DNA of 64,000 nt from a virus (IMGVR_UViG_3300030103_004672:24678-88677); one strand, 5' to 3'; counted from the stretch's first letter, positions 591 to 55,003 are shown. Notes: generated by a model not told the origin, from the sequence alone. Translations and numbers: made by a program.

Positions 591-1229
591 ATGTTAAAAT
601 ATACTAACGACGAATTAGGTAAGAGTATCCTGATCGACTCGAATGGTGAACAAGTAATGATGGAATGGGAAAAGCCATACATGGAAGCATGTATTGATTT
701 TCTTGAACCAAAAGGAGATGTTTTAGAGATAGGATTTGGTATGGGTTATTCTGCTACTCAGATTCAAAAACATACCCCTAAGTCATACACTATTGTAGAG
801 TGTGATCCTGTTGTGATTGAAAAATGTAAAGAATGGGCTAAACAATATGATAATGTAACTATCATAGAAGCCCGATGGCAAGAAGTAATTACAACTGATA
901 GATTAGGTAAATATGACGAAGTATTCTTTGATGATTTTCCTAACGATATTGAATACAAATCCGAATTAGAGTATTACAACGTAAATACAAGATTCCATCT
1001 TTTTATTGACTTCTTACGAATGCATCATCTAAAGCCTAACGCCAAAATATCTGGATATCTTTGCAAAGGTGAGAGCATGCAAAAAAACAAATATTGGAAG
1101 CATAAGTATATCGATAATAATGCCTGGGACTACAAAGAGAAAATTATTGATATCGAGGTGAGTAAAATACAAAAGTATCATAATTCTGTAAATAAAGCAG
1201 TGATACCTCTCTTAACATACAAATTGTAG
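591..1229 (+). CDS. SAM-dependent methyltransferase, GAMT/RMT2-like
   Basis: VMMEWEKPYM and VLEIGFGMGYSA (motif I), TIVECDP, VFFDDF match guanidinoacetate/RMT2 methyltransferases. Confidence 0.8.
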   Translation: MLKYTNDELGKSILIDSNGEQVMMEWEKPYMEACIDFLEPKGDVLEIGFGMGYSATQIQKHTPKSYTIVECDPVVIEKCKEWAKQYDNVTIIEARWQEVITTDRLGKYDEVFFDDFPNDIEYKSELEYYNVNTRFHLFIDFLRMHHLKPNAKISGYLCKGESMQKNKYWKHKYIDNNAWDYKEKIIDIEVSKIQKYHNSVNKAVIPLLTYKL

Positions 1230-1267: not shown

Positions 1268-1732
1268 ATGGCAAATACAGATAATAAATGTGCTAATCTA
1301 GAAGTACAAGATCATCACAAACATGCCGAAGATACATTTGGTTTAATTTATGACAAACAGCGAGAGCTCCAAGAAAGGTTAGGGTTTGATTTCTCTAATT
1401 ATACTCTTAAGGACGTTGCTGATTTTTGGTTTGTTAACAAACATGCTTTAGATGATGAAATGGGCGAAATGTTCGATGCACTTGGTGGTGTAAATGACGG
1501 TATAGCTAATGCAGCATGGAAGTATTGGAAGAAAGATAATTCGAAGGCATCAAAAATGTCTGTTAAAGATCTTTCAGAAGCTGACCGCCTTGAGTTATAT
1601 TATGAATGGATTGACGGTTTGCATTTCTACATGAACTTTGCGATTGCACTAGGCATGACAAGCAAAGACATCGTAAATTTATACATGGCAAAGAATGCAG
1701 AAAATTTTGACAGACAAGAAAGAGGTTATTAA
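1268..1732 (+). CDS. All-alpha dimeric dUTPase / dCTP pyrophosphatase (T4 gp56-like)
   Basis: DDEMGE, WKYWK, EWIDGLHF and KNAENFDRQERGY motifs. Confidence 0.8.
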   Translation: MANTDNKCANLEVQDHHKHAEDTFGLIYDKQRELQERLGFDFSNYTLKDVADFWFVNKHALDDEMGEMFDALGGVNDGIANAAWKYWKKDNSKASKMSVKDLSEADRLELYYEWIDGLHFYMNFAIALGMTSKDIVNLYMAKNAENFDRQERGY

Positions 1733-1735: not shown

Positions 1736-3139
1736 ATGCTATTAGATGTTTCGCAGGAAGACGGTAACTTGATCGTATCGTACTATAATTTTGAAGGTAA
1801 GACTAGATTTAAACATTACGAATTAACATCAAAGGATTTGTACAATTGGTATCCATGTGATGCAAGTGATAAAAGAGCAGATCTTAAGATGAAGAACTGG
1901 GATGGTACACCAGTTAGAAAGGGTCGTACAAAGCATCTTAATAAGTATCGTGTTATTGAATACTTAGAGAACATACCTGAGCAAGATAAGAAGACTATAT
2001 TCGGATATGATTTTCCTAAGACATATTTTATTGATATCGAAGTTGAAGTAACTGATAGTTTCCCAGAACCTGAAAAGGCTGAGAATGCTATTACAGCTAT
2101 TTGTATAGTAACGCCTGCAAATCAATGTGTAGTTCTCGCAACACGAGACATTCCAAAGGAGCAATATGGTGCTATTGAAAACCAGATAAATGAACACTTC
2201 AAAAGCACTGGTGAGACATTTACATTTGACATGAAATGTTTTAAGTCTGAATACGACATGCTATACACATTTCTTAAGTCATTTGTAAGAAAGTTCCCTA
2301 TGATGACTGGTTGGAACTTTGTTAAGTTTGACTGGGCTTACATAGTAAATAGAGCAAAAAAGCTTGGGATAGATGCTTCAATAGCTTCACCCCTTGACAG
2401 GTTATTCAGCAACAATAATTATCCGTCACACGTTGGTGTTATGGATTACATGGAGATATATTCTAAGTGGGACAGAACTGTAAGTATCAAAGATGATCTT
2501 AAACTCGATACTGCTGGAGCTGCTGTACTAGGAATTAAGAAGATAAAGTATGATGGCACACTGCAGGATCTGTACGAGAAAGAATACTCAAAATACATAT
2601 TTTACAATGCTGTAGATACGGCTCTAGTACAACTAATCCATAAGAAGATTAAGACGATGGATATTGCGTTGACAATATCACATATGAGTAGGATTAGTAT
2701 ATTTAAAGCTGCCTCACCTGTTGCAATTACAGAATCTTTGTTATGTAAAGAATTCTTAAAGCAAAACAGAGTTATGGCAACTCTTGATGAGAAGAATACA
2801 AAAAGCAGACAGTATGAAGGTGCATTTGTAAAACAACCAATAACAGGCATGCATAACTCTGTTGCATGTTTTGACTTTGCATCACTTTATCCATCAATCA
2901 TGAGACAGATGAATGTCTCTCCTGAAAGTTTTGTAAAGAAGGTAGACCCTAAACATACGTCTGATGAAATGGCTGATGATAGAATAGTTGCTATAAATGG
3001 AGTCGTTTATAAGTCTGAGGAATCAATTCTAAAAAGGATTCTTGCAGATCTATATGGTCAGCGTAAAGAATATAAAAAGAAATCTTTCGAATTGCAGCAA
3101 AAAGCTTATGACCTCGAAAAAACCTTACCAAAAACATAA
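1736..3139 (+). CDS. gp43: Family B DNA polymerase, N-terminal subunit (3'-5' exonuclease + motif A); split gene part A
   Basis: ExoI FIDIEV, ExoII GWNFVKFDW, ExoIII YNAVDT, motif A DFASLYPSIM; ends in first fingers helix (YGQRKEYKKK); no motif B or C. Confidence 0.92.
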   Translation: MLLDVSQEDGNLIVSYYNFEGKTRFKHYELTSKDLYNWYPCDASDKRADLKMKNWDGTPVRKGRTKHLNKYRVIEYLENIPEQDKKTIFGYDFPKTYFIDIEVEVTDSFPEPEKAENAITAICIVTPANQCVVLATRDIPKEQYGAIENQINEHFKSTGETFTFDMKCFKSEYDMLYTFLKSFVRKFPMMTGWNFVKFDWAYIVNRAKKLGIDASIASPLDRLFSNNNYPSHVGVMDYMEIYSKWDRTVSIKDDLKLDTAGAAVLGIKKIKYDGTLQDLYEKEYSKYIFYNAVDTALVQLIHKKIKTMDIALTISHMSRISIFKAASPVAITESLLCKEFLKQNRVMATLDEKNTKSRQYEGAFVKQPITGMHNSVACFDFASLYPSIMRQMNVSPESFVKKVDPKHTSDEMADDRIVAINGVVYKSEESILKRILADLYGQRKEYKKKSFELQQKAYDLEKTLPKT

Positions 3140-6022: not shown

Positions 6023-6775
6023 GTGGATAATTTAAACATTTATATAGTAGGACCATGTAGTGTGGAAAGTAGCTTTATTTTTGGATGCGTTGCAGAGAAA
6101 ATGACTAGCGCGATACCAGACGATAAGAACTGGTATTTAAAAGGAAGCTTTGACAAAGCGAACAGAACTAGTGTCGAAGCGCCTAGAGGTCCTGGAATTT
6201 ATGATTCTATTGATATTTTTGAAGATATTAAAGAAAAATTCACAAATATTAAAATCACTACCGATATCCACGAGCCCTGGCAGGCTGAAAAATTGAGGCA
6301 CATTGTTGATATGATCCAAGTTCCAGCATTTTTATGCAGACAAACTGATTTGATAAGAGAATGTGCACATAATTTTGATGTGATAAATGTAAAGAAAGGC
6401 CAATGGATGGATCCTGGATCAATGCGACATGTGGTTGAGAAGATACGTTATTATAATGAAGATGCAAAGGTATACATCACAGAACGTGGCACTCAGTTTG
6501 GATACGACAGGGTCATAGTAGACTATAGAGCTGTTGATATCATGAAGGAATTTTGCGATGGTGTCATATTGGATTGTACACATTCAACTCAACAGTTAGG
6601 GCAGGGAACTACTGGTGGTAATAGAAATCTTGCAAAGGCATATGTTAAAACTGCAAGAGAATTTGGTTATGATGGAATTTTTGCAGAAACACATCCAGCT
6701 CCAGATACTGCAATTTCTGATAAGGATAGCCAAATAGACTTAGAGTGGATGGCTAGCGTGATAAATACTATATGA
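6023..6775 (+). CDS. kdsA: KDO-8-phosphate synthase
   Basis: GPCSVES, KGSFDKANRTS, QVPAFLCRQTDL, KKGQW, ERG, DCTHS, ETHP..D..SD. Confidence 0.9.
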   Translation: MDNLNIYIVGPCSVESSFIFGCVAEKMTSAIPDDKNWYLKGSFDKANRTSVEAPRGPGIYDSIDIFEDIKEKFTNIKITTDIHEPWQAEKLRHIVDMIQVPAFLCRQTDLIRECAHNFDVINVKKGQWMDPGSMRHVVEKIRYYNEDAKVYITERGTQFGYDRVIVDYRAVDIMKEFCDGVILDCTHSTQQLGQGTTGGNRNLAKAYVKTAREFGYDGIFAETHPAPDTAISDKDSQIDLEWMASVINTI

Positions 6776-7221
6776 AATATTCAAGATCCGCAGGACTGGC
6801 AATCATATACAAAGGGACAGTATTAATGGGGCATCCTAGTAATGGATCTTGGGTTGGTAGATATAGTATTCCAAAAGGTCACGTTGAAGATAGCGAATCG
6901 ATTTTAGAGGCTGCGATTAGAGAGACAAAGGAAGAGGTTGGCATATCAGTTCCACTTGAAATGATTGACAAAACCCCTTACAGAGTTTACAGAATAGGTA
7001 AGCACAGCATTAAAACAGTTTTTTATTATATAGTAAAAATTGACGATCTTGGGCAAATCGGACTAGATACGATAAAGGTACCAAAAGAACAGCTTCAGAT
7101 AGAGGAAATCGACTGGGCTGGATTTATAACATACAAAGAAGCTAAGCTTAGATCATCTAGGTATCAATTAGCACTGATAGATAACTTACTTAATTTAGGA
7201 TTATTAAACCCAACTTTATAA
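6772..7221 (+). CDS. NUDIX hydrolase
   Basis: Nudix box GHVEDSESILEAAIRETKEEVG. Confidence 0.9.
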   Translation: MKYSRSAGLAIIYKGTVLMGHPSNGSWVGRYSIPKGHVEDSESILEAAIRETKEEVGISVPLEMIDKTPYRVYRIGKHSIKTVFYYIVKIDDLGQIGLDTIKVPKEQLQIEEIDWAGFITYKEAKLRSSRYQLALIDNLLNLGLLNPTL

Positions 7222-7230: not shown

Positions 7231-7410
7231 ATGATGGAAAAATTTGAAAACATTGAGACTTTGATTGAATCAGCAAGAGTAGAGGCTGAAAAATTCTATC
7301 AGAAAGGAAACAAAACAGCTGGCACTAGATTAAGAAAACTCATGCAGGATTTAAAGAACGCTGCACAAGAAGTTAGAGTAGAAGTACAAGAGACTAAGGC
7401 TAACCTATAA
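7231..7410 (+). CDS. Histone H1-like (Hc1-type) small protein of Bacteroidota type; absent from ORF track (59 aa)
   Basis: Manual translation MMEKFENIETLIESARVEAEKFYQKGNKTAGTRLRKLMQDLKNAAQEVRVEVQETKANL; KFY.KGNK.AGTR.RK is the family signature. Confidence 0.8.
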   Translation: MMEKFENIETLIESARVEAEKFYQKGNKTAGTRLRKLMQDLKNAAQEVRVEVQETKANL

Positions 7411-7435
7411 ACAAGTAGGATCTTTTTCGTATAAT
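7408..7435 (+). promoter_or_regulatory. Putative middle promoter TAAAC-N17-TATAAT driving the 7440-10621 operon
   Basis: TAAAC 7408-7412, TATAAT 7430-7435, ATG at 7440. Confidence 0.7.
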
Positions 7436-7439: not shown

Positions 7440-8522
7440 ATGGAAAAGCATACGCAGCTAAAGTACTTAACAGACTACATTAGTGATAAATCTACAAGTA
7501 TAGCAATCGCTGCGCTTGTAGGTAAACTAAGTCCAAAGGCGAGTTCACACAAATCAGGTTGGGCATACCACTTAGCAAACCAGTGCCATAATGCCGGTTA
7601 CGAAAACGTCACAGTAGTAACAGATACTACCACAAATTGGGATGATTTCGATGTCGTGCTAATTGAGCATGGGATGGAGTTCAAGGGCACTTTTAATATT
7701 TTCGGTGGTGCAAATGATGATCTTTATTATCAAATAACACGGATCTTTAGTTCTGCTAAGATGTTCAGCCTTCATCATGATATGCCTTGCATAGGTTCTT
7801 TGATAGAAAAAAGGCTGCATACTGGAAGCGACTTATTCAAGACGCTAGAAAGAAAAATTGAAGAGGTTAAAAAGATTTGTGCAAACAATATTACCAGAAT
7901 TGATTGCATCGAAAAAACCGACAAGCTATGTTTTGGTGACAGCCACTCATTTAGCCAATACACACCAGGATATATGACTAGTCGCCACGACGGTCTAACT
8001 ATGCACGGTGCATTAAAACGAGGTCTAGACACATATGTCTATCCTTGGATAAAGTCTCTAAGAATATACCTTGGAAATATCGACGTTAGGCATCATCTTA
8101 TGCGACAGCATAATCCAGAAATGGCTGTTGATAAATTACTAGCTCAATATGAAGATGGTCTTATGAAGCTACAAGAATCAGGAGTTGTGGATATAGAAGT
8201 TGTGCACACTTTACCAATAGAAAACGAGAGTAGAGCTTTGCCAAAAACTGGATACTACAAAGGTACTCCATTTACTGGAACATGGGAAGAACGAACTGAT
8301 TTGGTAAAGCAAATTAATAAAGGTATTGATAAAATGTGTGAAAGAAATGGTTGGAGTTCTTATAAGCATCCTGAGGTATTTTATAACCATATAGGTGAAC
8401 TTCCGTTTGACGTTATGGAAAAGCCAAAATCAGTACATATCGCTCGAGAATACTATAGATGGGATTTAGTAAACAATCGTAAAAACAAAAAGCTGATCAA
8501 GCAATCGATGTCTTTGTTTTAA
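7440..8522 (+). CDS. Putative DNA-modifying enzyme: beta-glucosyltransferase-like N-domain fused to SGNH-like domain, C-terminal clamp-binding-like tail
   Basis: DDFDVVLI...FNIFGG and MFSLHHDMP resemble T4 BGT N-domain; CFGDSHS, G, LGNIDVR, SVH resemble SGNH blocks I/II/III/V; ends QSMSLF. Confidence 0.5.
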   Translation: MEKHTQLKYLTDYISDKSTSIAIAALVGKLSPKASSHKSGWAYHLANQCHNAGYENVTVVTDTTTNWDDFDVVLIEHGMEFKGTFNIFGGANDDLYYQITRIFSSAKMFSLHHDMPCIGSLIEKRLHTGSDLFKTLERKIEEVKKICANNITRIDCIEKTDKLCFGDSHSFSQYTPGYMTSRHDGLTMHGALKRGLDTYVYPWIKSLRIYLGNIDVRHHLMRQHNPEMAVDKLLAQYEDGLMKLQESGVVDIEVVHTLPIENESRALPKTGYYKGTPFTGTWEERTDLVKQINKGIDKMCERNGWSSYKHPEVFYNHIGELPFDVMEKPKSVHIAREYYRWDLVNNRKNKKLIKQSMSLF

Positions 8523-8526
8523 AATT

Positions 8527-9729
8527 ATGGAAATAAAAACAACCAAATACTACGACGAATATTTGAGGTATTTTAATTTAGCAAAGAGGCAACAGGATTC
8601 GAGCAATCTCGGACATGTGCCACACGCAGATTCAGATCTAGATGATGAACTAATGCATCACATTGAACTATACGATGTGGTAGAGAGAAAATATGCCGGG
8701 TTTTCACAGATTGTTAACGATTGTTTTTACGGATGGTCAGAAGATCACCCGTATTGGTCAAGAATGAATGCAGGTCTTTATACAACTCAAAGAAAGCAGG
8801 TTGCAACGAACTGGACTGGCAAGCAAAATCATTTTGATCTGGCAGAATGGCTTTATGTTTTTATACTTCATAGAGTCACAGGATCTGCTATTAACTATGC
8901 AACTAAGCCAAGTGGCTATCATAACACCCTTCTATTTGATTTATGGCAATCTGATACTATAGAACAAATGTGCAAACAGGTTAAGGAGGCAACAAAATCT
9001 TTTTACACATCTGTTGGCTATCAGTTTCCAGCATTCCCAAAGCCACCTGCGCCAAAATCAAATGCTGATTTTAGCTTTAGCACAAAGAGAGAATACGTGT
9101 ATAAAAGAGGCGGCGATTACTTTCTATGTGAGTTCGCACCTAGACTTGCAAGGGATATGGCGCATTTTCTTGAGCAGGGTGGCAAAAAGGATCTTAGAGA
9201 GCTTGGAGAATGGATGTTTAAATGGAATAAGGACAATGGACTAAGAGCTTACAAATTTCAATATGCAGCTGTTATTGCCGATGTTGCAGATTGGTTTCCA
9301 CAATATATCAATAGGGAATCTATGTTTTTCTATGGAACAAACGCGGTAGAGTGCATTGGTTATCTAGCAGATCCAATAAATGGCAAGGGCAAAAAATCAG
9401 AGCCTTTTTTAGATGCAGTCATGACAAGAATTTATGAAGATACTGGATCACTACCATATAATGCCGAGGATGTTGCATGTGACTTTATTCGTTGGATAGA
9501 AAATTACATGAGACCAGGTGCGGATTATAAGCATATCAACATGGACACTCTTTGGAACTCATCTACAATAATTGATCATCCGTTTGGTAGACAGAGGGCA
9601 ATGCTTGAGTTAGGGCTATTAGAATCTTTCAATGGAATGACCAATCACCCATCTGATGACAAAGTTATAAAAGCAGCTGGTATTGATGTAGATGAGTACA
9701 AAAAACGTGTTTCGAAACTTTATAATTAA
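8527..9729 (+). CDS. aG/PT-PPlase-like (HhH-glycosylase fold) DNA base transferase
   Basis: Ordered motifs LYDVVER, LHR, KFQYAAVIADV, YGTNA, NAEDVACDFIRW parallel the N..R / FR / F.AYQ..D / GPGA / E..LCE..K pattern; adjacent to a PLP enzyme. Confidence 0.55.
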   Translation: MEIKTTKYYDEYLRYFNLAKRQQDSSNLGHVPHADSDLDDELMHHIELYDVVERKYAGFSQIVNDCFYGWSEDHPYWSRMNAGLYTTQRKQVATNWTGKQNHFDLAEWLYVFILHRVTGSAINYATKPSGYHNTLLFDLWQSDTIEQMCKQVKEATKSFYTSVGYQFPAFPKPPAPKSNADFSFSTKREYVYKRGGDYFLCEFAPRLARDMAHFLEQGGKKDLRELGEWMFKWNKDNGLRAYKFQYAAVIADVADWFPQYINRESMFFYGTNAVECIGYLADPINGKGKKSEPFLDAVMTRIYEDTGSLPYNAEDVACDFIRWIENYMRPGADYKHINMDTLWNSSTIIDHPFGRQRAMLELGLLESFNGMTNHPSDDKVIKAAGIDVDEYKKRVSKLYN

Positions 9730-9733
9730 GATT

Positions 9734-10621
9734 ATGCCACATAACAAACATACAGATAGTCTATCTAATCAAGATCTAAATCTAATGATGCCTAATCGTG
9801 AAGCATGGCTTGATTTAGCTGGAGATTGGGAAGATCCATTTGATGCTCCTACAATTATTGAACATGATGGCTTTAAAGTCGTTAGAGAAGATATGATGGG
9901 ATTTGGATCAAAGTGTAGATTTGGAGACATCTTAGTACAAAAGGCAGCTTCAGATACTCTTGTATATGTACAGCCTCGATACGGATTTGCAGGTATATCG
10001 CTTGCATATCTTGCCAAAAAGTACAATAAAAAATTAGTATTATTTAGTCCTAGCCAAAAACAAATATCAGATCACCAGGCAATATGTATAGAAAGAGGAG
10101 CTACAATGAAATTTAGAAGAATTGCAGCAATGCCAAATCTAAATAAAATAGCCGCAGATTGGGCTAAAGATAATGGTGCATTTTTCATTCCACTCGGATT
10201 AAGACATCCGTTAGTAACTGCAGCTGCCGTAAAAGTTGCATATGATTTAGCAGAGAACAATGGCTATCCAGAAGAAGTTTGGTCTGCAATATCAACAGGT
10301 GTGCTTCAACGATCTTTACAAATAGCGTGGCCAGATTCTAAATTCAATGCAGTTGCAGTTGCTAGAAATATAAAAAGAGGTGAAAGGGGAAAGGCAAAGA
10401 TGTGGTCACATCCAAAAGCATTTAACCAAAACGTGGATCAAAAATACTATCCTCCATTTCCTTCTGCGCTGAACTATGATGCAAAGGCTTGGGAATTTAT
10501 GAAAAGAAATGGATCTCCTGGCGCTTGGTTTTGGAATGTTGGGGGTGATCCTAAACCTGAATTCGATGAAACAAAAGACAAAACTGATTCACAGAGGGAA
10601 TGGGGAGAAATAAGAGATTAA
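9734..10621 (+). CDS. PLP-dependent fold-type II enzyme, as found in phage base-hypermodification loci
   Basis: VVREDMMGFGSKCR (Schiff-base Lys), SLAY, STGVL, YDAKAW, FWNVG; ATG at 9734 after upstream stop preferred over 9692. Confidence 0.8.
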   Translation: MPHNKHTDSLSNQDLNLMMPNREAWLDLAGDWEDPFDAPTIIEHDGFKVVREDMMGFGSKCRFGDILVQKAASDTLVYVQPRYGFAGISLAYLAKKYNKKLVLFSPSQKQISDHQAICIERGATMKFRRIAAMPNLNKIAADWAKDNGAFFIPLGLRHPLVTAAAVKVAYDLAENNGYPEEVWSAISTGVLQRSLQIAWPDSKFNAVAVARNIKRGERGKAKMWSHPKAFNQNVDQKYYPPFPSALNYDAKAWEFMKRNGSPGAWFWNVGGDPKPEFDETKDKTDSQREWGEIRD

Positions 10622-10646
10622 ACAATTAACAAAAAATTAGTAAAAT
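10619..10646 (+). promoter_or_regulatory. Putative middle promoter TAAAC-N17-TAAAAT
   Basis: TAAAC 10619-10623, TAAAAT 10641-10646. Confidence 0.6.
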
Positions 10647-11538: not shown

Positions 11539-12348
11539 ATGAATCACAAGAAAATACATGACTTAATAATCAAAAGGGCAAAAGAGAGAACTTTAGAAGG
11601 CTACTCCGAAAAACACCACATTATACCAAAATGCCTAGGCGGAACTGATGATCAAGATAATCTAGTACATCTAACAGCAAGGGAGCATTTTATCATACAC
11701 AAACTACTATGTGAGATCTACCCAAATGAATCAAAACTCCATTGGGCTGCATTTATGATGGCAACTGCACGAGGCAAACACATGGACAACCGAGATTACC
11801 GAATAGGCTCTAGAGAATATGAAAGGCTTAGAGAATCTTTAGAGATTAGTGACGAGACTAGGCGAAAATCAGGTATTGCAAACATTGGTAACAAGTATAG
11901 ACTAGGAAAAAAACATTCTGACGAAAGCAAAAAAAAGATGAGCCAGGCAGCTATGGGAAATACAAATTCGAGAGGCTATAAACACACTGAAGAAGCAAGA
12001 AAAAATATGAGTAAGGCTGCGAAGGCAAGAGATCGTAAACCACACTCTGGGGAAACTAAGCAAAAAATGAGTGATGCCTGGAAATTAAAAAAGGAACAGG
12101 GCTACGAGTCACCGATGAAAGGTATAAAGAGGCCTGAAGAAGTAAAGAAGAAAATATCTGCTTCTAAAACTGGTGTTAAGCGTGGCAAGTTCTCGCAAGA
12201 ATGGCTTGATAACATGTCAAAATCTCTAAAGGGAAAAGCGAAGGGCAAAATATGGATTAACAACGGTGTAAAGGGTAGCATGATACTCCCAGATGAGCCA
12301 ATTCCAGAAGGCTGGACACGTGGCATGCTTAGAAGAAAACAAAATTGA
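11539..12348 (+). mobile_element. Free-standing HNH homing endonuclease with NUMOD3-type repeats (MobE-like)
   Basis: EKHHIIPKCLGG.D..NLVHLTAREH..H followed by repeated H(S/T)EE.K.KMS motifs. Confidence 0.9.
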
Positions 12349-12368: not shown

Positions 12369-13505
12369 ATGGATCGAAAATTAGAAAAAAAGTACGAAGA
12401 GTTAGCAGAGCTTAAAAAATTAGCAGGCGAGTATTATAACTACGAACAAGGAATCAAGCTCATGCTTAATTCGATCTACGGTGCATTTGGAAATCCATAC
12501 TTTTATTTCTTCAATGTTGACATAGCAGAAACTATCACACTTCAGGGTAAAGATGCTATTCTTTACACAGAAGAATTAGTAAACAAATACTTTAGAGAAT
12601 TTTGGCATTTAGATACGGATGCACACAATAAGATGGGTATCACCGTTACTGGAAAGATCAAGCAACCTGTAGGAATCTATATTGACACTGATTCAATTTA
12701 CATGAAATTTGAAGAAGTTATCAAAAACTCAGACTGGGAAGGTGATTCTAAAACTTTTATACTTAATTTATACAAGCATAGATTAGGAGAATACATTGAA
12801 CGCATTCTACAAAAATATGCTGATGACAACAACGCCGAAAACTTCTTAAGCTTCGAACTAGAAAGCATTGCAAAGAATGCTATCTGGTTAGCTAAAAAGA
12901 AATACATGCAAAATATAGTTTGGAAAGATCCTGACTTACATTATGATGATCTTACTAAGATCAGCGCTAAGGGATTTGAAATTATTCAATCATCTACTCC
13001 GATATTTGCAAGGCAGAAGTTAAAAGACTTATTAAAATACATCTTTTCTGTTGAAGAGCTTAGCATGAAGGATTTTGCAGGTCGTCTTAAAGAAATAAAG
13101 CGTGAGTTCAAGCTTGCAAACGTTGAAAATATAAGTTTTGCAAAAAAGGTAAACAATTATCAAAGGTATGTTCTAAACGACATAGATAGATTTGAGATTA
13201 CTAAAGGATGCCCTATCGGTGTAAGAAGTGCAGGATATCATAATTACTTGCTAAATAATTCAAATGCAAAAATGAAATACAAACCGCTTGGTAATGGCGA
13301 AAAGTTAAAAATGTATTTTTCTACAGATAGGCACTGTGATGTATTTGCATATGCACCTGGTGATTATCCTTATGAATTTGCACCTGAAATAGATTACGAT
13401 GTGCAATTTGAGAAAACTATATTAGATCCAATAAATCGGGTTATTAAGGCGATGGGATTCAAGCCATTTGATCGTAACTTGATTTATGCAGTGTCTTTAT
13501 TCTAA
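12369..13505 (+). CDS. gp43: Family B DNA polymerase, C-terminal subunit (motifs B, C, thumb); split gene part B
   Basis: Motif B KLMLNSIYGAFG, AETITLQG, motif C YIDTDS, KKKY, KGFE, IDYDVQFEK; ends AVSLF. Confidence 0.92.
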   Translation: MDRKLEKKYEELAELKKLAGEYYNYEQGIKLMLNSIYGAFGNPYFYFFNVDIAETITLQGKDAILYTEELVNKYFREFWHLDTDAHNKMGITVTGKIKQPVGIYIDTDSIYMKFEEVIKNSDWEGDSKTFILNLYKHRLGEYIERILQKYADDNNAENFLSFELESIAKNAIWLAKKKYMQNIVWKDPDLHYDDLTKISAKGFEIIQSSTPIFARQKLKDLLKYIFSVEELSMKDFAGRLKEIKREFKLANVENISFAKKVNNYQRYVLNDIDRFEITKGCPIGVRSAGYHNYLLNNSNAKMKYKPLGNGEKLKMYFSTDRHCDVFAYAPGDYPYEFAPEIDYDVQFEKTILDPINRVIKAMGFKPFDRNLIYAVSLF

Positions 13506-33040: not shown

Positions 33041-34249
33041 ATGGCAAATAACAGATACACATTATTAATAGACGGAAATTACTTTTTATTTAGAACCTTG
33101 TTTGTAAATCCAAGTTCTAGATCTGGTGAATTATTAGCAGATGAAAACTCTATTGCAGTCTTTGTTAGAAAACTAGCAACAGACCTTACTTATCAAATAA
33201 GACTATTCGATGGACTTATTGGCAATATAGTATGGGCACAGGATTCTAAATCATGGCGAAAGCCATTCCATCCTGAATTAGATTATAAGGGTAGTAGAAA
33301 GAAAAACAATAAAGTCAATTGGGACAATTTTCAAAAGGCTTCTGAATCATTTACAAAGATTCTCGCACAATATGGAGTTAGTATTTCAAAAGCTGCAGGT
33401 GCAGAAGGAGATGACCTAGTATGGGCATGGTCTGAGAGACTAATAAATGACGGTACATCTTCTATAATTTTTTCAGGGGACAGAGACTTAATGCAATTGA
33501 TCCAGAGAAGTGGCGACAACCATATCTTATTTTACAGCCCAACTCACAAAAACTTGTCTGTTCCCATAGGTTTCAATAACTGGATTAGTCATAAGGAAGA
33601 TGACGAAGGCGTTGACATATTTAACATGTCATCTATAAGTGAAAACCAAACTAAGCAAAAGCTAGAGTCGGTTATCAAGAAGAAAAAGATTGATCCCTCT
33701 GAATTAAATGTAGAAATATTTAAACTTAACAAAGTTTTAACAGGTGACGCTGGTGACAATGTTCCGCCAGTCTATACAAAAATTGTTGCGGGCAAGGACG
33801 GTAAGGAGCGCAAGTATGGTGTGAGCGATAAGAAGGCTTCTAAAATTTGTATTGAATATGCAAAAAAATACAATGATTTGTCAATATCAAATCTTTTAAC
33901 TGACGATGCCTGCACTTATATGGCTAACACTATTATTAAGAACTTAAATATACAAGACAAAACGCAGGAAGATATCATAGAATCAATTAAGCTTAATTGC
34001 AAGTTGATGATACTGTCAACTGATTTAGTTCCATCGGAAGTATTAGAAGCAATGGAAGACGATATTAGCAACAATATAAATAATAAAACAGACTTATCTA
34101 AGTTTAAAAATATGAAATCTCTATTAGCTAATAGCGATTTTGTTACAAAGGATTTAGAAATGGCACAATCGTCATCATTCTTAAAAGATGCAGGAGACAG
34201 CGATATGTCATTTATTACAGATGCTAAACAAAATCAAAGTTTGTTCTAA
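33041..34249 (+). CDS. rnh: 5'-3' exonuclease / RNase H (FEN1 family)
   Basis: LIDGNY, SWRK, YKGSR, EGDD, SGDRDLMQL, GDAGDNVP; ends QNQSLF. Confidence 0.88.
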   Translation: MANNRYTLLIDGNYFLFRTLFVNPSSRSGELLADENSIAVFVRKLATDLTYQIRLFDGLIGNIVWAQDSKSWRKPFHPELDYKGSRKKNNKVNWDNFQKASESFTKILAQYGVSISKAAGAEGDDLVWAWSERLINDGTSSIIFSGDRDLMQLIQRSGDNHILFYSPTHKNLSVPIGFNNWISHKEDDEGVDIFNMSSISENQTKQKLESVIKKKKIDPSELNVEIFKLNKVLTGDAGDNVPPVYTKIVAGKDGKERKYGVSDKKASKICIEYAKKYNDLSISNLLTDDACTYMANTIIKNLNIQDKTQEDIIESIKLNCKLMILSTDLVPSEVLEAMEDDISNNINNKTDLSKFKNMKSLLANSDFVTKDLEMAQSSSFLKDAGDSDMSFITDAKQNQSLF

Positions 34250-51867: not shown

Positions 51868-52092
51868 ATGTTAATTGAAAATGATCAAAATAGATCAAAG
51901 TATATTGAGCGTGCGATTTATAACTACATAACAAAGACACTCAAAATAAGATTTGTATCAGGGCAAGTATACGAATACGAAAACTTTGATGAAGAAGTAT
52001 ATGACAAATTTATTAAGGCTGAATCGCAACAGGCTTTTTTCACAGAGCAGATCAAGCCAAATTATGATGGTACTGAACTTTTGCTTGATTAA
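51868..52092 (+). CDS. KTSC-domain protein
   Basis: YN...L.I.F.SG.VYEY..., F..AESQ..FF...IK. Confidence 0.8.
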   Translation: MLIENDQNRSKYIERAIYNYITKTLKIRFVSGQVYEYENFDEEVYDKFIKAESQQAFFTEQIKPNYDGTELLLD

Positions 52093-52568
52093 TGGGTAAG
52101 GTTATTTTAGTAGGTAAGTCAGCTGCTGGTAAGGATCACCTAAGAAAGATATTACAGAGCAGGGGCTTTAAATATGCAGTTTCTTACACAACGAGACCTA
52201 AGAGGGAGAAAGAGATAGACGGCTTAGATTATTTTTTTATAGAAAAGAAAGATTTTAACAATAAGCTATTGTCAGGGGAATGGTACGAATATGTAAAGTT
52301 TAATAATTGGTATTACGGAACAACTAGGAAACAGTTCAAAAACTGCAATCTATTTATAATGACACCAGCAGGTTTAAGCAAGGTCGATCCAATTGATAGA
52401 AAGCAATGTACTGTGATTTACTTAGATGTAAGCAATGAAGTAAGAATGCAGCGTTTATTGGACCGAGGAGATAATAATGATAGTTTAGAACGTAGGATGT
52501 CTGCAGACGATAGAGACTTTGAAACTTTTACAGATTTCGATATTAGAATAACAGAATCTAATTTTTAA
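52092..52568 (+). CDS. Guanylate-kinase-like NMP kinase
   Basis: GKSAAGKD, SYTTRP.R..E.DG.DYFF, YGT. Confidence 0.85.
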   Translation: MGKVILVGKSAAGKDHLRKILQSRGFKYAVSYTTRPKREKEIDGLDYFFIEKKDFNNKLLSGEWYEYVKFNNWYYGTTRKQFKNCNLFIMTPAGLSKVDPIDRKQCTVIYLDVSNEVRMQRLLDRGDNNDSLERRMSADDRDFETFTDFDIRITESNF

Positions 52569-52571
52569 CAC

Positions 52572-53165
52572 ATGATAGTAATTATAGAAGGCCAAGACCG
52601 TACTGGTAAAGATACACAAACTGAGCTATTAAGACAAAAGTATAAACACTTATCATTTCATAAGCTACACTACTCAACACCGCCAACTAAAACAATATAC
52701 ACTAGCATTGATTACAGTTCAAAGCTATATGATGGTATGTTCAAAATGATCCATAGTGCTAGTGAAACAGATCAAAACTTACTTATAAACAGAGCACACC
52801 TAGGTGAATCTGTTTACTCTCCGTTATACCGAGGATATTCTGGTGATTACATATTTGACATTGAAAAACAATATCTAGAAACACTAACAGATGATTTATT
52901 TCTAATTGTCCTAGTAAATGATCCATATTTTGTAATGTCTAGAGATGACGGTGACAGCCACCACAAAAATAGCGAAGAACGCATTGCTAAAGAGCGTGAT
53001 ATGTTTACTCGTGCATATATGAAAAGTGGTATTACTAACAAGCTCTTAATAAATTGTAGAGATTTAACTCCTGATGTGATTCACTACGATATAAGTAAAT
53101 TTATTGAAGACACCATTCATAGTAGATTGGTAAGTCATGATCAAATACAAATACAGTTTCAATGA
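52572..53165 (+). CDS. Thymidylate-kinase-like dNMP kinase
   Basis: IIEGQDRTGKDT, NRAHLGESVY..LYRG; overlaps the gp42-like gene (ATGA). Confidence 0.8.
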   Translation: MIVIIEGQDRTGKDTQTELLRQKYKHLSFHKLHYSTPPTKTIYTSIDYSSKLYDGMFKMIHSASETDQNLLINRAHLGESVYSPLYRGYSGDYIFDIEKQYLETLTDDLFLIVLVNDPYFVMSRDDGDSHHKNSEERIAKERDMFTRAYMKSGITNKLLINCRDLTPDVIHYDISKFIEDTIHSRLVSHDQIQIQFQ

Positions 53166-54031
53166 TAGCAACATTTAAAGGTCAAACATTTGCAGATGTA
53201 TATCAAGAACTTTTAACAGAGCTTTACAGCGATCCGCATTGTGTTAGCAATCCTCGTGGAATGGCTTGTAAAGAAATGCTTAATGTAAGTCTTCATATTG
53301 AAGATCCAGAATTTCCACTATACGAGAATGAACGCAGGTCTAGCCAATTACGCTATATAGCAGGTGAGCTATTATGGTATTTCACAGGTCGTAATGATAT
53401 TGACTTCATATCTAAGTATTCAAAGTTTTGGGCACATTTAGATAATGGTGACGGCACGGTTAATTCTGCTTATGGTAATTTAATATTCAGGGAAGAGAAT
53501 GAACATGGTGTTTCCCAGTGGCAGTGGGCATACGATTCATTAGTTGCAGATAAAGACACTAGACAGGCAGTGTTACATTACAATAAACCTAGTCATCAAT
53601 TTAAAGGTAATAAGGATTTTGTTTGTACGATGTACTCAAACTTTCATATTAGAAATAATAAGTTATATCTGAAGACTGCAATGAGATCTAATGATGCAAT
53701 ATTAGGTACTCCTACAGACATAGCATTCTTTTGTTTTTTGCAACAACAGATGCATCGACTTCTACTTCCACATTATCCAAAGCTAGAATTAGGAAGTTAT
53801 ACTCACACGGTTGACTCTATGCATATTTATGAAAGACACTTTGATCTAGTTAAGGATATGCTAGCTAATGATTTTCAGGCATTTTCATTCCCAAAAATAG
53901 ATCACAATCTAGTTGATTACAAAGGTATTCCATCAAACACCTTAATAAATACAGTATATAGCATAGTCAACGGTTCTATTCTTAATCCATCTACTAAAAT
54001 TATGACATGGATTTATGATAATGCCAAATAG
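53162..54031 (+). CDS. Thymidylate-synthase-family enzyme, dCMP hydroxymethylase (gp42) type
   Basis: NSAYG, DFVCT (catalytic Cys), MRSNDAILGTPTD (Asp where ThyA has Asn), SMHIYERHF. Confidence 0.75.
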   Translation: MIATFKGQTFADVYQELLTELYSDPHCVSNPRGMACKEMLNVSLHIEDPEFPLYENERRSSQLRYIAGELLWYFTGRNDIDFISKYSKFWAHLDNGDGTVNSAYGNLIFREENEHGVSQWQWAYDSLVADKDTRQAVLHYNKPSHQFKGNKDFVCTMYSNFHIRNNKLYLKTAMRSNDAILGTPTDIAFFCFLQQQMHRLLLPHYPKLELGSYTHTVDSMHIYERHFDLVKDMLANDFQAFSFPKIDHNLVDYKGIPSNTLINTVYSIVNGSILNPSTKIMTWIYDNAK

Positions 54032-54052
54032 ACTCAAAAAAAATAGCTAATA

Positions 54053-55003
54053 ATGAAGCTACTAGATTTTAACCAATTTATCAACGAGAATTTCTCTGAA
54101 CAATACCCAGGCCTTAAGAAGGTATATTTAGCTACGAAAAGATCTAGTGGTCAGTATTGGTTATCTTACAAGGGATTTGCAGGCAACAAATTCTTTACAC
54201 AAATAACTGAAAAAAATATTGATGATTTAGACATCAATAAGGATTACCCTGTTTTAACTTACAATAAAGAGCTTGTTACTAAGCTTATTGATTCTGGAAG
54301 AATAAAAGAAGAAAACGTTTACAATCTTCCAAAGCACGTAGATTTATCAGGATCTAAAGAAGAATTTCACAAGTTAGCTGGTGATCATGAAAATGTTCCG
54401 ACTACAGTTTATACTAAGGAAGATGCCCTAGAGAAACTTAATTTCCCAATCATCGCAAAACCCTCACAAGGCCACAGCGGAATGGGAATACAAATTTTTA
54501 AGACTAAAGAAGATTTTGAAAAGGCAGACGAAAATAAATTTGATACATTCTCTGAATTTATAGATAAGGCTGAAGAGCAGAGGTTTTTTGTATTTAAAGG
54601 AGAGCCGTTCTTTTGGCAAGAAAGACAGCCTAATAATGCAAAGGCAAAATCAGGCGACGGCGGAGCAGATTCAAAAATGAATTTTAAGTATTGTAGAAAG
54701 GATCCGGCTAATATTCCATCTGAATATGCAAGTGTTATCAAAGAATTTTCTAAGATGTATGAGAACCTACCTATGATATGTTTTGACATGATGAAAGATA
54801 AAAATGGTAAGGTATTCGTTATTGAGCCAAATAGCCAACCAGGTCCACCATTTGATTCGACTGCGAAGATGTATGAGAAGATTTACGAAGACTTCTACGG
54901 TGAGAAGATGGATAAGGCATCTAAAGATAAGCTCGATGAATATTCTAAGCAAATGATTGAGATGACTTTAGCAGATGATTCAGGAAGATTTTCAACTGAA
55001 TAA
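54053..55003 (+). CDS. ATP-grasp (RimK-like) ligase
   Basis: FPIIAKP..GHSGMGI, EFI, E.R, FD, VIEPNSQPG. Confidence 0.8.
   Translation: MKLLDFNQFINENFSEQYPGLKKVYLATKRSSGQYWLSYKGFAGNKFFTQITEKNIDDLDINKDYPVLTYNKELVTKLIDSGRIKEENVYNLPKHVDLSGSKEEFHKLAGDHENVPTTVYTKEDALEKLNFPIIAKPSQGHSGMGIQIFKTKEDFEKADENKFDTFSEFIDKAEEQRFFVFKGEPFFWQERQPNNAKAKSGDGGADSKMNFKYCRKDPANIPSEYASVIKEFSKMYENLPMICFDMMKDKNGKVFVIEPNSQPGPPFDSTAKMYEKIYEDFYGEKMDKASKDKLDEYSKQMIEMTLADDSGRFSTE

What the first reader, a model, noticed from the sequence alone, without database searches (positions are those of the whole stretch)
7440..10621. Candidate undescribed cytosine-hypermodification operon (BGT-N/SGNH + aG/PT-PPlase-like transferase + PLP enzyme)
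Seen: three tightly spaced genes under one TAAAC-N17-TATAAT promoter, inside the replication region between the two polymerase halves and directly before the sliding clamp. Known: aG/PT-PPlase-type transferases, often with fold-type II PLP enzymes, build hypermodified thymidines on 5-hydroxymethyluracil DNA (phiW-14, SP10, ViI, M6), after a DNA kinase pyrophosphorylates the hydroxymethyl group. Seen: the only TS-family gene in this window (53162) has the dCMP-type Asp, a gp56-like pyrophosphatase is present (1268), and the operon has no kinase but has a BGT-N/SGNH fusion. Inference: the phage makes 5hmC (or a related C5-modified C) and elaborates it post-replicatively with an amino-acid-derived group. 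The SGNH enzyme might activate the CH2OH by acylation instead of pyrophosphorylation, or add/remove an acyl group. This would be a new base and a new route.
Basis: partly seen in the sequence, partly recalled or inferred. Interest (0 to 1): 0.93.

Follow-up and report, generated by a model that had tools for sequence, protein, structure and literature searches.

The report
Kinase-less hydroxymethylcytosine DNA hypermodification cassette
An uncultured marine T4-like phage carries three linked genes related to the enzymes that attach amino acids to thymine in other phages' DNA, but here they travel with the hydroxymethylcytosine pathway and have an esterase-fold partner instead of the usual DNA kinase, so the phage DNA probably carries a decorated cytosine that I found described in no paper.

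Summary
Three co-oriented genes (7440-8522, 8527-9729, 9734-10621) sit 4 nt apart behind a TAAAC-N17-TATAAT site of a motif class that is strongly enriched in the window.

- **ORF1:** the C-terminal half is an SGNH fold (Z 14.6). The N-terminal "BGT-like" domain was not shown.
- **ORF2:** it folds as a helix-hairpin-helix glycosylase-like protein. Its best solved match is the PaMx11 gp46 amino-acid:DNA transferase (Z 9.5), and it keeps an invariant Glu-x3-Cys. It matches no Pfam model of that superfamily.
- **ORF3:** it belongs to the PHROG of M6 gp52, a proven DNA-adduct PLP decarboxylase, and its lysine aligns with gp52 K36.
- **Linkage:** ORF1 and ORF2 are fused in other phages. The trio is syntenic in 63-79 of 80 related contigs and also occurs in a T7-like phage.
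- **Base:** all eight genome lineages examined carry a T4 gp42-type dCMP hydroxymethylase signature, and a gp56-like dCTPase is present.
- **Kinase:** no 5-hmdU DNA kinase is found, even in a complete 256-kb relative.

The cassette most likely modifies 5hmC in DNA by an undescribed, kinase-independent route. The chemistry is inferred, not shown. This scan already reached the same reading on other genomes.

The parts
7408..7435 (+). Promoter-like site TAAACA-N16-TATAAT, 4 nt upstream of ORF1
   Evidence: The motif class is enriched: 13 sites against 1.5 expected.
7440..8522 (+). ORF1, 360 aa. It has an N-terminal alpha/beta domain (about residues 1-150) of unassigned family and a C-terminal SGNH/GDSL-fold domain (about residues 155-349). 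GDSHS Ser168 is at 7941-7943, GNID Asn213 is present, and His333 is at 8436-8438. The protein ends in SLF.
   Evidence: phrog_13881 at 2e-61. AF2 pLDDT 90.6. SGNH matches at Z 14.6 and Foldseek 5e-6. Invariant residues from alignment A3. Fused to an ORF2-like domain in P0275, P0282, P0305, P0329, P0344, P0351 and P0358.
8527..9729 (+). ORF2, 400 aa. It is an HhH DNA-glycosylase-like helical protein of the aGPT-Pplase / amino-acid:DNA transferase / HMUDK_hel superfamily. The Glu314 (9466-9468) and Cys318 (9478-9480) dyad is invariant.
   Evidence: AF2 pLDDT 94.4. PDB best hit 8z2m, Z 9.5. BFVD hits. Invariants from A2. Atlas neighbours carry PF18723 in 11-14% of members. No Pfam, PHROG or NCBIfam match.
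9734..10621 (+). ORF3, 295 aa (an alternative upstream ATG lies at 9692). It is a fold-type-II PLP enzyme of the M6 gp52 family. The predicted PLP lysine is Lys60, at 9911-9913.
   Evidence: phrog_7093 at 7.7e-37; M6 gp52 matches the same PHROG at 2e-159. K60 aligns with gp52 K36. The family profile hits O-acetylserine sulfhydrylases at 7e-6. PF00291 at 4e-4, below cut-off.
1268..1732 (+). gp56-like dCTP pyrophosphatase. In most relatives it sits directly after ORF3.
   Evidence: PF08761. About 40% identity to T-even dCTPases. Synteny ORF1-ORF2-ORF3-gp56-polN in 50 of 80 loci.
53162..54031 (+). TS-family enzyme with the T4 gp42 (dCMP hydroxymethylase) active-site signature. It is the presumed source of 5hm-dCMP.
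   Evidence: PF00303. Residues at ThyA positions 143/146/169/177 are D/C/D/D, as in T4 gp42. This is not the D169N signature of 5hodCMP synthases (PMC13326640).
52572..53165 (+). Thymidylate-kinase-like P-loop kinase immediately upstream of the TS homologue. Its role as an hm-dCMP kinase is inferred.
   Evidence: Weak PF02223 / TIGR00041 matches. The same kinase-TS pairing is seen in RB69/DLP3 (PMC13326640) and in the T7-like relative L100.
10619..10646 (+). Next promoter-like site of the same class. It marks the end of the three-gene unit.

Best explanation
The three genes form a post-replicative DNA hypermodification cassette that acts on 5-hydroxymethylcytosine.

Shown or strongly supported: the phage makes hm-dCTP and excludes dCTP, because it has a gp42-type TS homologue, an adjacent nucleotide kinase and a gp56-like dCTPase. 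ORF1 and ORF2 work as one two-part enzyme and are fused in other phages.

Inferred: ORF2, a base-flipping HhH protein, takes 5hmC into a pocket that holds the Glu314/Cys318 dyad. As in PaMx11 gp46, the Cys would attack C6 so that the C5 substituent can leave and a nucleophile can add. The SGNH domain of ORF1 (Ser168/His333) stands in for the P-loop 5-hmdU DNA kinase, most simply by esterifying the CH2OH to make a leaving group, or by delivering an acyl or aminoacyl group. ORF3, a homologue of the M6 gp52 / ViI gp226 PLP decarboxylases, then trims an amino-acid adduct that has a free alpha-amine, for example to an aminoalkyl group. The nature of the donor and the final base are not known.
For: - **Folds and families.** ORF2 fold. 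The ORF2 Glu-x3-Cys is invariant in 45 homologues, with the same spacing as the catalytic E243/C247 of PaMx11 gp46 (PMC11472151; sequence). ORF1 SGNH fold with invariant Ser, Asn and His. ORF3 matches phrog_7093 together with M6 gp52, and its Lys aligns with gp52 K36 (PMC8989533).
- **Functional linkage.** ORF1-ORF2 fusions. ORF1 is linked to ORF2 in 79 of 80 IMG/VR loci and ORF3 in 63 of 80. The same trio plus MazG, kinase and TS occurs in a 37-kb T7-like phage. A complete genome with the fusion also has ORF3.
- **Base identity.** The D/C/D/D gp42 signature is present in the window, G001, G002, the L045 group (TS about 2 kb from ORF2), L100, G006, G007 and Aeromonas phage 44RR2.8t. dCTPase. 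Canonical ThyA is also present in G001, G002 and 44RR2.8t, as in T4.
- **No kinase.** No PF18748 match in a complete 256-kb relative or in four other large contigs.
- **Variable island.** Relatives insert a paralogue (ORF2b; hhalign 89.6%, E 2e-6), LOG, GT2+Glf or CitG into the island. This is typical of modification clusters.
- **DNA context for ORF3.** ORF3-type PLP domains are fused or adjacent to DNA methyltransferases in Erythrobacter and Microcystis phages.
Against: - No chemistry was or can be tested here.
- ORF2 matches neither PF18724 (ADDT) nor PF18723 above threshold. Profile comparisons with M6 and PaMx11 proteins are not significant.
- Weak sequence signals lean towards the kinase-partner clade (HMUDK_hel) rather than the transferase clade. 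M6 gp55 of that clade is dispensable in vitro (PMC8989533). ORF2 may therefore only present the base.
- The window lacks ORF2b, which 51 of 80 relatives have.
- SGNH enzymes are usually hydrolases, and the Asp of the DxxH block is missing here (Lys330).
- Aeromonas phages have the ORF1-type protein without ORF3. In phage 25 it sits beside a UDP-galactopyranose mutase instead of an ORF2, so ORF1 may have a role unrelated to amino-acid transfer.
- The record is only about 32% complete, so a kinase or further partners elsewhere in this genome are not excluded.
Confidence: 0.6

Rival explanations
1. ORF1 and ORF2 together are the counterpart of the two-part 5-hmdU DNA kinase (catalytic domain plus HMUDK_hel helical domain), with SGNH replacing the P-loop. 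ORF2 only binds DNA and flips the base. The SGNH domain is the sole group-transfer catalyst and leaves an O-acyl or O-aminoacyl ester on 5hmC. ORF3 then remodels that ester. Where a true transferase step exists, it is done by the paralogue ORF2b, which this phage lacks.
For: Weak sequence signals point to PF18723 rather than PF18724: one of 45 ORF2 homologues at E 0.01, the 44RR2.8t ORF233c C-terminus at 0.0036, and Atlas neighbours with 11-14% PF18723. M6 gp54 (kinase) and gp55 (HMUDK_hel) are adjacent and are fused in SP10. This mirrors the ORF1/ORF2 adjacency and fusion. ORF2b is present in 51 of 80 relatives. SGNH acyltransferases exist, for example PatB and OatA among the structural matches.
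Against: About 25 relatives, like this window, have the plain trio without ORF2b, so ORF2b is not needed. ORF2 keeps the invariant Glu-x3-Cys, which is catalytic in ADDT (PMC11472151). The best solved structural match is the transferase gp46. An ester through the alpha-carboxyl would leave nothing for a decarboxylase to remove.
Confidence: 0.2
2. The cassette modifies 5-hydroxymethyluracil or thymine, like its characterised relatives, and the link to cytosine is coincidental.
For: All characterised aGPT-Pplase/ADDT and gp52-type PLP enzymes act on 5hmU-derived bases (PMC8989533, PMC11472151).
Against: No Asn-type hydroxymethylase was found in any of the eight lineages. The Asn-type copies are canonical ThyA, with Leu at position 143. 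The dCTPase is tightly linked to the cassette. There is no 5-HMUDK. The 93%-complete T7-like genome has a single TS homologue, and it is of gp42 type.
Confidence: 0.05
3. The genes do not modify DNA bases. ORF2 is a nucleoside or nucleotide glycosylase or salvage enzyme (like the DUF2419 queuosine-monophosphate hydrolase), ORF1 is an esterase and ORF3 is a metabolic PLP enzyme. They would act on nucleotide pools, RNA or host envelope components.
For: DUF2419 queuine-salvage enzymes are the second-best structural match (Z 8.4, 8.3). SGNH matches are mostly carbohydrate and lipid esterases. ORF3 profile hits are cysteine synthases. Neighbouring genes here include KdsA and a NUDIX hydrolase.
Against: KdsA, NUDIX and Hc1 are not conserved next to the trio in any of 80 relatives. 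The trio sits among replication and dCTPase genes. ORF3 shares family-specific C-terminal motifs and the Lys with the DNA-acting M6 gp52. ORF3-type domains are fused to DNA methyltransferases. The Glu-x3-Cys dyad is typical of the DNA-acting superfamily.
Confidence: 0.08
4. ORF1 is a tailoring enzyme for a glycosylated base, adding or removing O-acyl groups on a sugar attached to hmC. It would not be part of the ORF2/ORF3 chemistry.
For: In Aeromonas phage 25 a standalone ORF1-type gene follows a UDP-galactopyranose mutase and an unknown 358-aa protein. The complete relative G001 has GT2 and Glf right after ORF3. The closest SGNH structures include sialate and xylan O-acetylesterases.
Against: This window and most relatives have no glycosyltransferase in the island. 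ORF1 is fused to ORF2-type domains in many phages, which argues for joint action on the same substrate.
Confidence: 0.07

Closest known systems
Thymidine hypermodification pathways of phages M6, ViI, PaMx11, PhiW-14 and SP10. Components: dUMP hydroxymethylase, 5-HMUDK kinase (PF18748 plus PF18723), amino-acid:DNA transferase (PF18724), and a PLP decarboxylase, rSAM or FAD enzyme (PMC5889632, PMC8989533, PMC11472151).
   Same: A post-replicative cluster that combines an HhH glycosylase-like protein carrying a Glu-x3-Cys dyad with a gp52-type fold-II PLP enzyme. Relatives have a paralogous pair of HhH proteins. The clusters are variable tailoring islands next to replication and nucleotide genes.
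   Different: The base is cytosine-derived (gp42-type TS plus dCTPase) rather than 5hmU. There is no P-loop DNA kinase; an N-domain/SGNH protein is adjacent or fused instead. ORF2 is too divergent to match PF18724 or PF18723. No rSAM or FAD enzyme is present.
T4 5hmC synthesis and glucosylation (gp42, gp56, gp1, alpha-gt, beta-gt).
   Same: The pre-replicative part is the same: a gp42-type dCMP hydroxymethylase signature, a gp56-like dCTPase and a separate canonical ThyA in complete relatives. The modification genes sit next to the DNA polymerase.
   Different: There is no alpha- or beta-glucosyltransferase. The post-replicative enzymes have entirely different folds. Only a short FNIFGG/INFFGG resemblance links the ORF1 N-domain to beta-gt, and it is not significant.
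5-hydroxycytosine arabinosylation in RB69, DLP3 and relatives (PMC13326640).
   Same: A T4-like phage that has a TS homologue and a TMK-like kinase but lacks T4 glucosyltransferases. It is another case of a gene-42-positive, gt-negative phage hiding a different modification.
   Different: Those TS homologues carry the D169N signature and make 5hodCMP, whereas here Asp169 is retained. Their tailoring enzymes are GT-B arabinosyltransferases fed by a UDP-arabinose pathway.
Phage C5-MT/TET clusters with a P-loop kinase and aG/PT-PPlase genes (PMC8256090).
   Same: That work raised the idea that aGPT-Pplase-type enzymes might act on 5hmC in DNA.
   Different: There the 5hmC comes from methylation plus TET oxidation, a P-loop kinase is present, and the step is untested. 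Here 5hmC is made pre-replicatively and there is no kinase.
Aeromonas phage 44RR2.8t ORF233c (phrog_17781) and phage 25 ORF225c (phrog_13881).
   Same: They are homologues of ORF1 (33-38% identity), found in cultured T4-like phages that have genes 42 and 56 but no glucosyltransferase (PMC2993671). In 44RR2.8t the protein is fused to a helical C-terminal half that gives weak HMUDK_hel / phrog_2396 signals.
   Different: They have no ORF3-type PLP enzyme. The C-terminal half is not detectably an ORF2 homologue by BLAST or hhalign. The neighbours differ: an SSF transporter in 44RR2.8t and a UDP-galactopyranose mutase in phage 25.

Membership tests
Amino acid:DNA transferase (Pfam PF18724 ADDT, aGPT-Pplase clade 2) | Match to the family profile above its cut-off | tested here: not met
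   ORF2 and 44 homologues gave no PF18724 hit at E<=1. The positive controls PaMx11 gp46 (1.6e-27) and M6 gp51 (1.4e-46) do match.
Amino acid:DNA transferase (Pfam PF18724 ADDT, aGPT-Pplase clade 2) | HhH DNA-glycosylase-like helical fold as in PaMx11 gp46 (8z2m) | tested here: met
   The best of 48,161 PDB representatives is 8z2m_A: Z 9.5, rmsd 4.1 over 213 residues. BFVD hits to ADDT-labelled proteins have probability 1.0. For an all-helical model, Z 9.5 is only moderate.
Amino acid:DNA transferase (Pfam PF18724 ADDT, aGPT-Pplase clade 2) | Catalytic Cys with a Glu four residues upstream (gp46 E243/C247; the equivalent residues in M6 gp51 and ViI gp247 are required for activity) | tested here: met
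   E314 and C318 are invariant in 45 homologues and were verified in the window. They lie inside the structurally aligned range 10-333. Residue-by-residue superposition could not be inspected.
Amino acid:DNA transferase (Pfam PF18724 ADDT, aGPT-Pplase clade 2) | Works downstream of a 5-hmdU DNA kinase (PF18748) on a phosphorylated hydroxymethyl group | tested here: not met
   No PF18748 match at E<=1 in a complete 256-kb relative or in four other large contigs. The cassette neighbourhoods contain no kinase.
HMUDK_hel (Pfam PF18723, aGPT-Pplase clade 1) | Match to the family profile | tested here: inconclusive
   One of 45 ORF2 homologues matches at E 0.01. The own record has none at E<=1. The nearest Atlas clusters have 11-14% of members with PF18723. 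hhalign against M6 gp55 and PaMx11 gp50 gives E 0.12 over the expected region.
HMUDK_hel (Pfam PF18723, aGPT-Pplase clade 1) | Adjacent or fused to the catalytic domain that derivatises the hydroxymethyl group | tested here: met
   ORF2 is adjacent to ORF1 in 79 of 80 loci and is fused to it in at least 7 proteins. The partner domain is SGNH, not a P-loop kinase.
M6 gp52 / ViI gp226-type PLP-dependent DNA-adduct decarboxylase (phrog_7093) | Profile match to the family that holds M6 gp52 | tested here: met
   ORF3 matches phrog_7093 at 7.7e-37 over profile positions 15-278 of 279. M6 gp52 matches at 2.2e-159.
M6 gp52 / ViI gp226-type PLP-dependent DNA-adduct decarboxylase (phrog_7093) | Schiff-base lysine (gp52 K36) and fold-type-II PLP scaffold | tested here: met
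   K60 of GSKCR is invariant and aligns with gp52 K36. The C-terminal PFP..YD.KAW..FWN motif is shared. The family profile hits O-acetylserine sulfhydrylases at 7e-6, starting at this lysine. PF00291 at 4e-4 is below its cut-off.
M6 gp52 / ViI gp226-type PLP-dependent DNA-adduct decarboxylase (phrog_7093) | Decarboxylates an amino acid attached to a DNA base | not testable with these tools
   This needs an enzyme assay.
SGNH/GDSL hydrolase superfamily | Fold, with block I Ser, block III Asn and block V His | tested here: met
   Z 14.6 against 2hsj and Foldseek 4.9e-6 against 3p94, over residues about 155-349. GDSHS S168, GNID N213 and H333 are invariant.
SGNH/GDSL hydrolase superfamily | Asp three residues before the catalytic His (DxxH) | tested here: not met
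   The sequence is K330-S-V-H333. The position holds K, Q or S in homologues, and E327 is invariant nearby.
T4 beta-glucosyltransferase N-terminal (acceptor) domain | Detectable homology or shared fold with BGT residues 1-170 | tested here: inconclusive
   hhalign of A3 against T4 BGT aligns 46 columns around FNIFGG/INFFGG, with probability 3.6%. The fold searches were filled by the SGNH domain.
T4 gp42-type dCMP hydroxymethylase | TS fold with the catalytic Cys, Asp at ThyA N177, Asp retained at ThyA D169 and Asp at ThyA L143 | tested here: met
   PF00303 at 4e-25. Residues are D/C/D/D, identical in pattern to T4 gp42 and unlike RB69 gp48 (D169N) or ThyA (L..N).
T4 gp56 dCTPase/dUTPase | Sequence similarity to characterised T-even dCTP pyrophosphatases | tested here: met
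   33-42% identity over about 90% of the length to 1,445 phage records, mostly annotated as dCTP pyrophosphatase. PF08761.

The most novel reading that the evidence does not exclude
The cassette makes a previously unknown hypermodified cytosine, namely an amino-acid-derived group on the C5 methylene of 5hmC. It does so by a route in which an SGNH acyl-enzyme domain, docked or fused to a base-flipping HhH protein, replaces the DNA kinase. This would be ester rather than phosphate activation, and a new class of enzyme acting on a DNA base. The cassette is widespread in marine T4-like and T7-like phages.
Probability: 0.3. Interest if true: 0.92.

Novelty: new variant of a known kind. Interest (0 to 1): 0.82.

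Why it matters
Every biochemically characterised aGPT-Pplase/ADDT pathway modifies thymidine and begins with a DNA kinase. A cytosine-directed, kinase-independent version would add a new hypermodified base and a new activation chemistry to DNA biology.

It would also explain what gene-42-positive, glucosyltransferase-negative T4-like phages do with their hmC. That question was left open in 2010 (PMC2993671) and has been answered only for RB69-type phages.

The cassette is common. ORF1, ORF2 and ORF3 have 733, 932 and 2,057 homologues at E<=1e-3, mostly from marine metagenomes. Its product probably shapes restriction and CRISPR evasion in abundant ocean phages. It may also affect how well such phage DNA is sequenced, cloned or cut. 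The enzymes could become tools for site-specific derivatisation of 5hmC.

Tried and rejected
- **Direct sequence searches.** ORF2 against Pfam, PHROGs, NCBIfam and PDB sequences gave nothing. tblastn of ORF2 against 50,697 phage records gave no match.
- **Profile comparisons of ORF2 and ORF2b.** Comparisons with PaMx11 gp46, M6 gp51 (ADDT), M6 gp55 and PaMx11 gp50 (HMUDK_hel), and the C-terminal half of 44RR2.8t ORF233c were not significant.
- **Foldseek of ORF2 against the PDB.** Nothing at E<=0.001. VIA-align and BFVD were needed to place the fold.
- **BGT-N test.** hhalign probability 3.6%. The Atlas gave no usable hit. pdb_via was filled by SGNH chains.
- **KdsA, NUDIX and Hc1 as cassette members.** Rejected: none is conserved beside the trio in 80 relatives, and there is no KdsB or SIS gene in the record.
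- **ATP-grasp next to the TS homologue as a cassette member.** Rejected: it is not adjacent to TS in G001 or G002, and it is absent from G006, G008 and 44RR2.8t.
- **5hoC (RB69-type) chemistry.** Rejected: Asp169 is retained.
- **The search for related loci with the fusion P0344.** No confirmed locus.
- **Literature.** Searches for SGNH in phage DNA modification, and for amino-acid:DNA transferases acting on cytosine, found no description.

Full report
**Anatomy.** The window is part of an 88,677-bp IMG/VR viral contig that CheckV rates about 32% complete. It belongs to a distant T4-like phage with about 35% G+C. ORF1 (7440-8522, 360 aa), ORF2 (8527-9729, 400 aa) and ORF3 are co-oriented. ORF3's homologues are about 298 aa and cover 95% of the 309-aa reading. 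The real start is therefore most likely the ATG at 9734, which gives 4-nt spacers after both upstream stops. TAAACA-N16-TATAAT lies at 7408-7435. The class WAAAC-N17-TAWAAW occurs 13 times against 1.5 expected, with 0 of 100 shuffles reaching 13. Almost all sites are on the + strand, in front of genes. One site precedes ORF1, the next lies at 10619 after ORF3, and none lies between the three genes. Only the identity of the downstream 'clamp' gene could not be verified by sequence.

**ORF2.** No sequence library recognises it. It is nevertheless highly conserved, with 932 homologues at E<=1e-3 and many at 72-80% identity in marine metagenomes. An exhaustive search found 142 cluster representatives down to about 21% identity. 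With a 45-sequence alignment, AlphaFold gives pLDDT 94.4 and pTM 0.92.
- In BFVD the model matches proteins labelled 'amino acid:DNA transferase domain', aGPT-Pplase clade 1, '5-hmdU DNA kinase helical domain' (PhiW-14, SP10) and endonuclease III.
- Among 48,161 PDB representatives the best match is PaMx11 gp46, the 5-PmdU glycinyltransferase (8z2m, Z 9.5, rmsd 4.1 over 213 residues). Queuine-salvage DUF2419 and the 8-oxoG, 3-meA and EndoIII glycosylases follow. For a helical protein this Z is moderate, so I read it as superfamily membership.
- The family's invariant residues include E314 and C318 in the motif AEDVACDFIRW. In gp46 the catalytic pair is E243/C247, also E-x3-C (PMC11472151; sequence). 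The equivalent Cys and Glu are required in M6 gp51 and ViI gp247 (PMC8989533). PaMx11 gp50, an HMUDK_hel protein, carries EHTLC.
- ORF2 fails the Pfam models of both clades. Its weak signals lean to PF18723, the kinase-partner clade.

**ORF1.** The model (pLDDT 90.6) has a C-terminal SGNH/GDSL domain covering residues about 155-349. It matches at Z 14.6 to 2hsj, and many esterases and peptidoglycan O-acetyltransferases follow. Ser168 (GDSHS), Asn213 (GNID) and His333 are invariant, but there is no Asp three residues before the His. The N-terminal alpha/beta domain resembles T4 beta-glucosyltransferase only around FNIFGG/INFFGG, and hhalign gives probability 3.6%.

**ORF3.** It matches phrog_7093 at 7.7e-37. 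M6 gp52, the experimentally proven PLP decarboxylase of C-alpha-glycinylthymidine in DNA (PMC8989533), is a core member of that PHROG at 2e-159. In an alignment that includes gp52, ORF3 Lys60 (GSKCR) aligns with gp52 K36, the proposed Schiff-base lysine. A C-terminal PFP..YD.KAW..FWN signature is shared. The family profile hits O-acetylserine sulfhydrylases at 7e-6, starting at that lysine. Related PLP domains are fused to an N6/N4 DNA methyltransferase in Erythrobacter phages, and one is adjacent to such a methyltransferase in a Microcystis phage.

**Linkage.** ORF1- and ORF2-type domains are fused in at least seven proteins of 639-790 aa. In 80 IMG/VR loci retrieved with the ORF2 profile, ORF1 is present in 79 and ORF3 in 63. 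The usual order is ORF1-ORF2-(ORF2b)-(LOG)-ORF3-gp56-polN-nrdB-nrdA-clamp-polC. KdsA, NUDIX and Hc1, which precede the trio here, are never conserved there.
- ORF2b is a distant paralogue of ORF2 (hhalign 89.6%, E 2e-6; it also carries E-D-K-x-C). It follows ORF2 in 51 of 80 loci but is absent from this record. This recalls the paralogous aGPT-Pplase pairs of thymidine-modifying phages.
- Other inserts are a LOG-family protein, GT2 plus UDP-galactopyranose mutase, and CitG.
- In one subgroup the order is TS, MazG-like protein, dCMP deaminase, ORF2, ORF2b, ORF3, ORF1.
- A 37-kb, 93%-complete T7-like phage carries MazG-ORF1-ORF2-ORF3 and, 5 kb away, a kinase and a TS homologue.
- A complete 225-kb genome with the fusion has ORF3 elsewhere in the genome.

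**Which base.** I aligned TS homologues with E. coli ThyA, T4 gp42 and RB69 gp48. The set comprised the window, two large relatives (G001, which is complete at 256 kb, and G002), the L045 subgroup, the T7-like phage, the two fusion-bearing genomes and Aeromonas phage 44RR2.8t. At ThyA positions 143/146/169/177 all show Asp/Cys/Asp/Asp, exactly as T4 gp42 does. Asp at position 177 marks dCMP as the substrate. Retention of Asp169 excludes the recently described 5-hydroxy-dCMP synthases, which have D169N (PMC13326640). G001, G002 and 44RR2.8t also have a canonical ThyA (Leu143/Asn177), as T4 has td. The gene at 1268-1732 is about 40% identical to T-even dCTPases, and in relatives it directly follows ORF3. 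No PF18748 5-hmdU DNA kinase is detectable in the complete relative or in four other large contigs.

**Cultured relatives.** ORF1-type proteins occur in Aeromonas phages of the 44RR2.8t, 31 and 25 groups, in Stenotrophomonas phage IME13 and in Tenacibaculum phages. [quoted passage not shown]
- In 44RR2.8t the protein (795 aa) is fused to a helical half with weak HMUDK_hel and phrog_2396 signals, and it sits beside a Na+/solute symporter.
- In phage 25 it stands alone, after a UDP-galactopyranose mutase and an unknown 358-aa protein.
- Neither phage has ORF3.

These phages offer a direct experimental entry. They also warn that ORF1's chemistry may not be tied to amino-acid transfer.

**Interpretation.** The best-supported reading is a post-replicative, kinase-independent hypermodification of 5hmC.
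- Shown: the folds, the conserved catalytic-type residues, the fusion and synteny, the gp42-type signature, the dCTPase, and the lack of a kinase.
- Inferred: that ORF2's Cys attacks C6; that the SGNH domain supplies leaving-group activation or acyl transfer; that the adduct is amino-acid-derived; and that ORF3 decarboxylates it.

The main rival keeps the same substrate but makes ORF1 plus ORF2 the analogue of the two-part kinase, with the SGNH domain as the only transferase.

**Literature and earlier scan notes.** Literature searches found no description of such a cassette. The closest idea is an untested suggestion that kinase and aG/PT-PPlase genes in TET clusters might act on 5hmC (PMC8256090). 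This scan's own earlier follow-ups on other genomes reached the same 'kinase-less hydroxymethylcytosine cassette' reading. I saw them, after my own analysis, and they are not independent evidence.

**Limits.** No chemistry could be tested. The ORF1 N-domain could not be modelled on its own.

Noticed in passing
window 6023-6775: A phage-encoded 3-deoxy-8-phosphooctulonate (KDO-8-P) synthase. It scores above the NCBIfam equivalog cut-off (NF003543, 260.7 bits against 242; PF00793 at 3e-41). No KdsB or SIS/KdsD gene is present in the 88.7-kb record, and the gene is not conserved next to the cassette in relatives.
   Followed up: partly
window 7231-7410: A 59-aa histone H1-like Hc1 protein (PF07432, 3.6e-22) lies directly upstream of the cassette promoter. 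A NUDIX hydrolase at 6772-7221 precedes it.
   Followed up: no
window 8502-8522, 13485-13505, 34229-34249: ORF1, the polymerase C-terminal half and the 33041-34249 protein all end in SLF. All standalone ORF1 homologues in alignment A3 end in LF, whereas the fused forms do not. This could be a clamp-docking tail that couples modification to replication.
   Followed up: partly
window 1736-3139, 11539-12348, 12369-13505: The family-B DNA polymerase is split into two genes about 9 kb apart. An HNH-type endonuclease ORF lies directly before the C-terminal half. Relatives show the same split, with nrdB, nrdA and the putative clamp between the halves.
   Followed up: partly
window 1230, 7408, 10619, 12336, 13503, 22686, 31987, 50975 and others: The motif WAAAC-N17-TAWAAW occurs 13 times against 1.5 expected. 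Nearly all sites are on the + strand just upstream of genes. It is a candidate phage-specific promoter class.
   Followed up: partly
window 52092-55003: A four-gene block: guanylate-kinase-like, thymidylate-kinase-like, gp42-type TS homologue and an ATP-grasp ligase. The ATP-grasp gene has homologues in G001 and G002, but they are not next to the TS gene there.
   Followed up: partly
L023 11206-13025; L056 13143-15423; L027 9191-9988: Relatives insert further genes into the cassette. These are an ORF2 paralogue (ORF2b, 51 of 80 loci), a LOG / 'lysine decarboxylase'-family protein (14 loci), a GT2 glycosyltransferase plus UDP-galactopyranose mutase (5 loci) and a CitG-like triphosphoribosyl transferase (1 locus). 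This suggests a family of different final bases.
   Followed up: partly
L088 2326-4764 (Erythrobacter phage ZS04); L002 5105-6696 (Microcystis phage Mae-JY30): ORF3-type PLP domains are fused to an N6/N4 DNA methyltransferase (812 aa), or lie adjacent to one, near ParB-like and PAPS-reductase-like genes. This may be another undescribed DNA modification system that uses the same PLP family.
   Followed up: no
L003 3393-7373 (Aeromonas phage 44RR2.8t); L105 832-4103 (Aeromonas phage 25): In cultured T4-like Aeromonas phages the ORF1-type gene sits beside a Na+/solute symporter (44RR2.8t), or beside a UDP-galactopyranose mutase and an unknown 358-aa protein (phage 25). These phages have genes 42 and 56 but no known glucosyltransferase.
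   Followed up: partly
window 591-1229: A small SAM-dependent methyltransferase-like protein with weak RrnaAD and Methyltransf_25 matches lies just upstream of the dCTPase gene.
   Followed up: no
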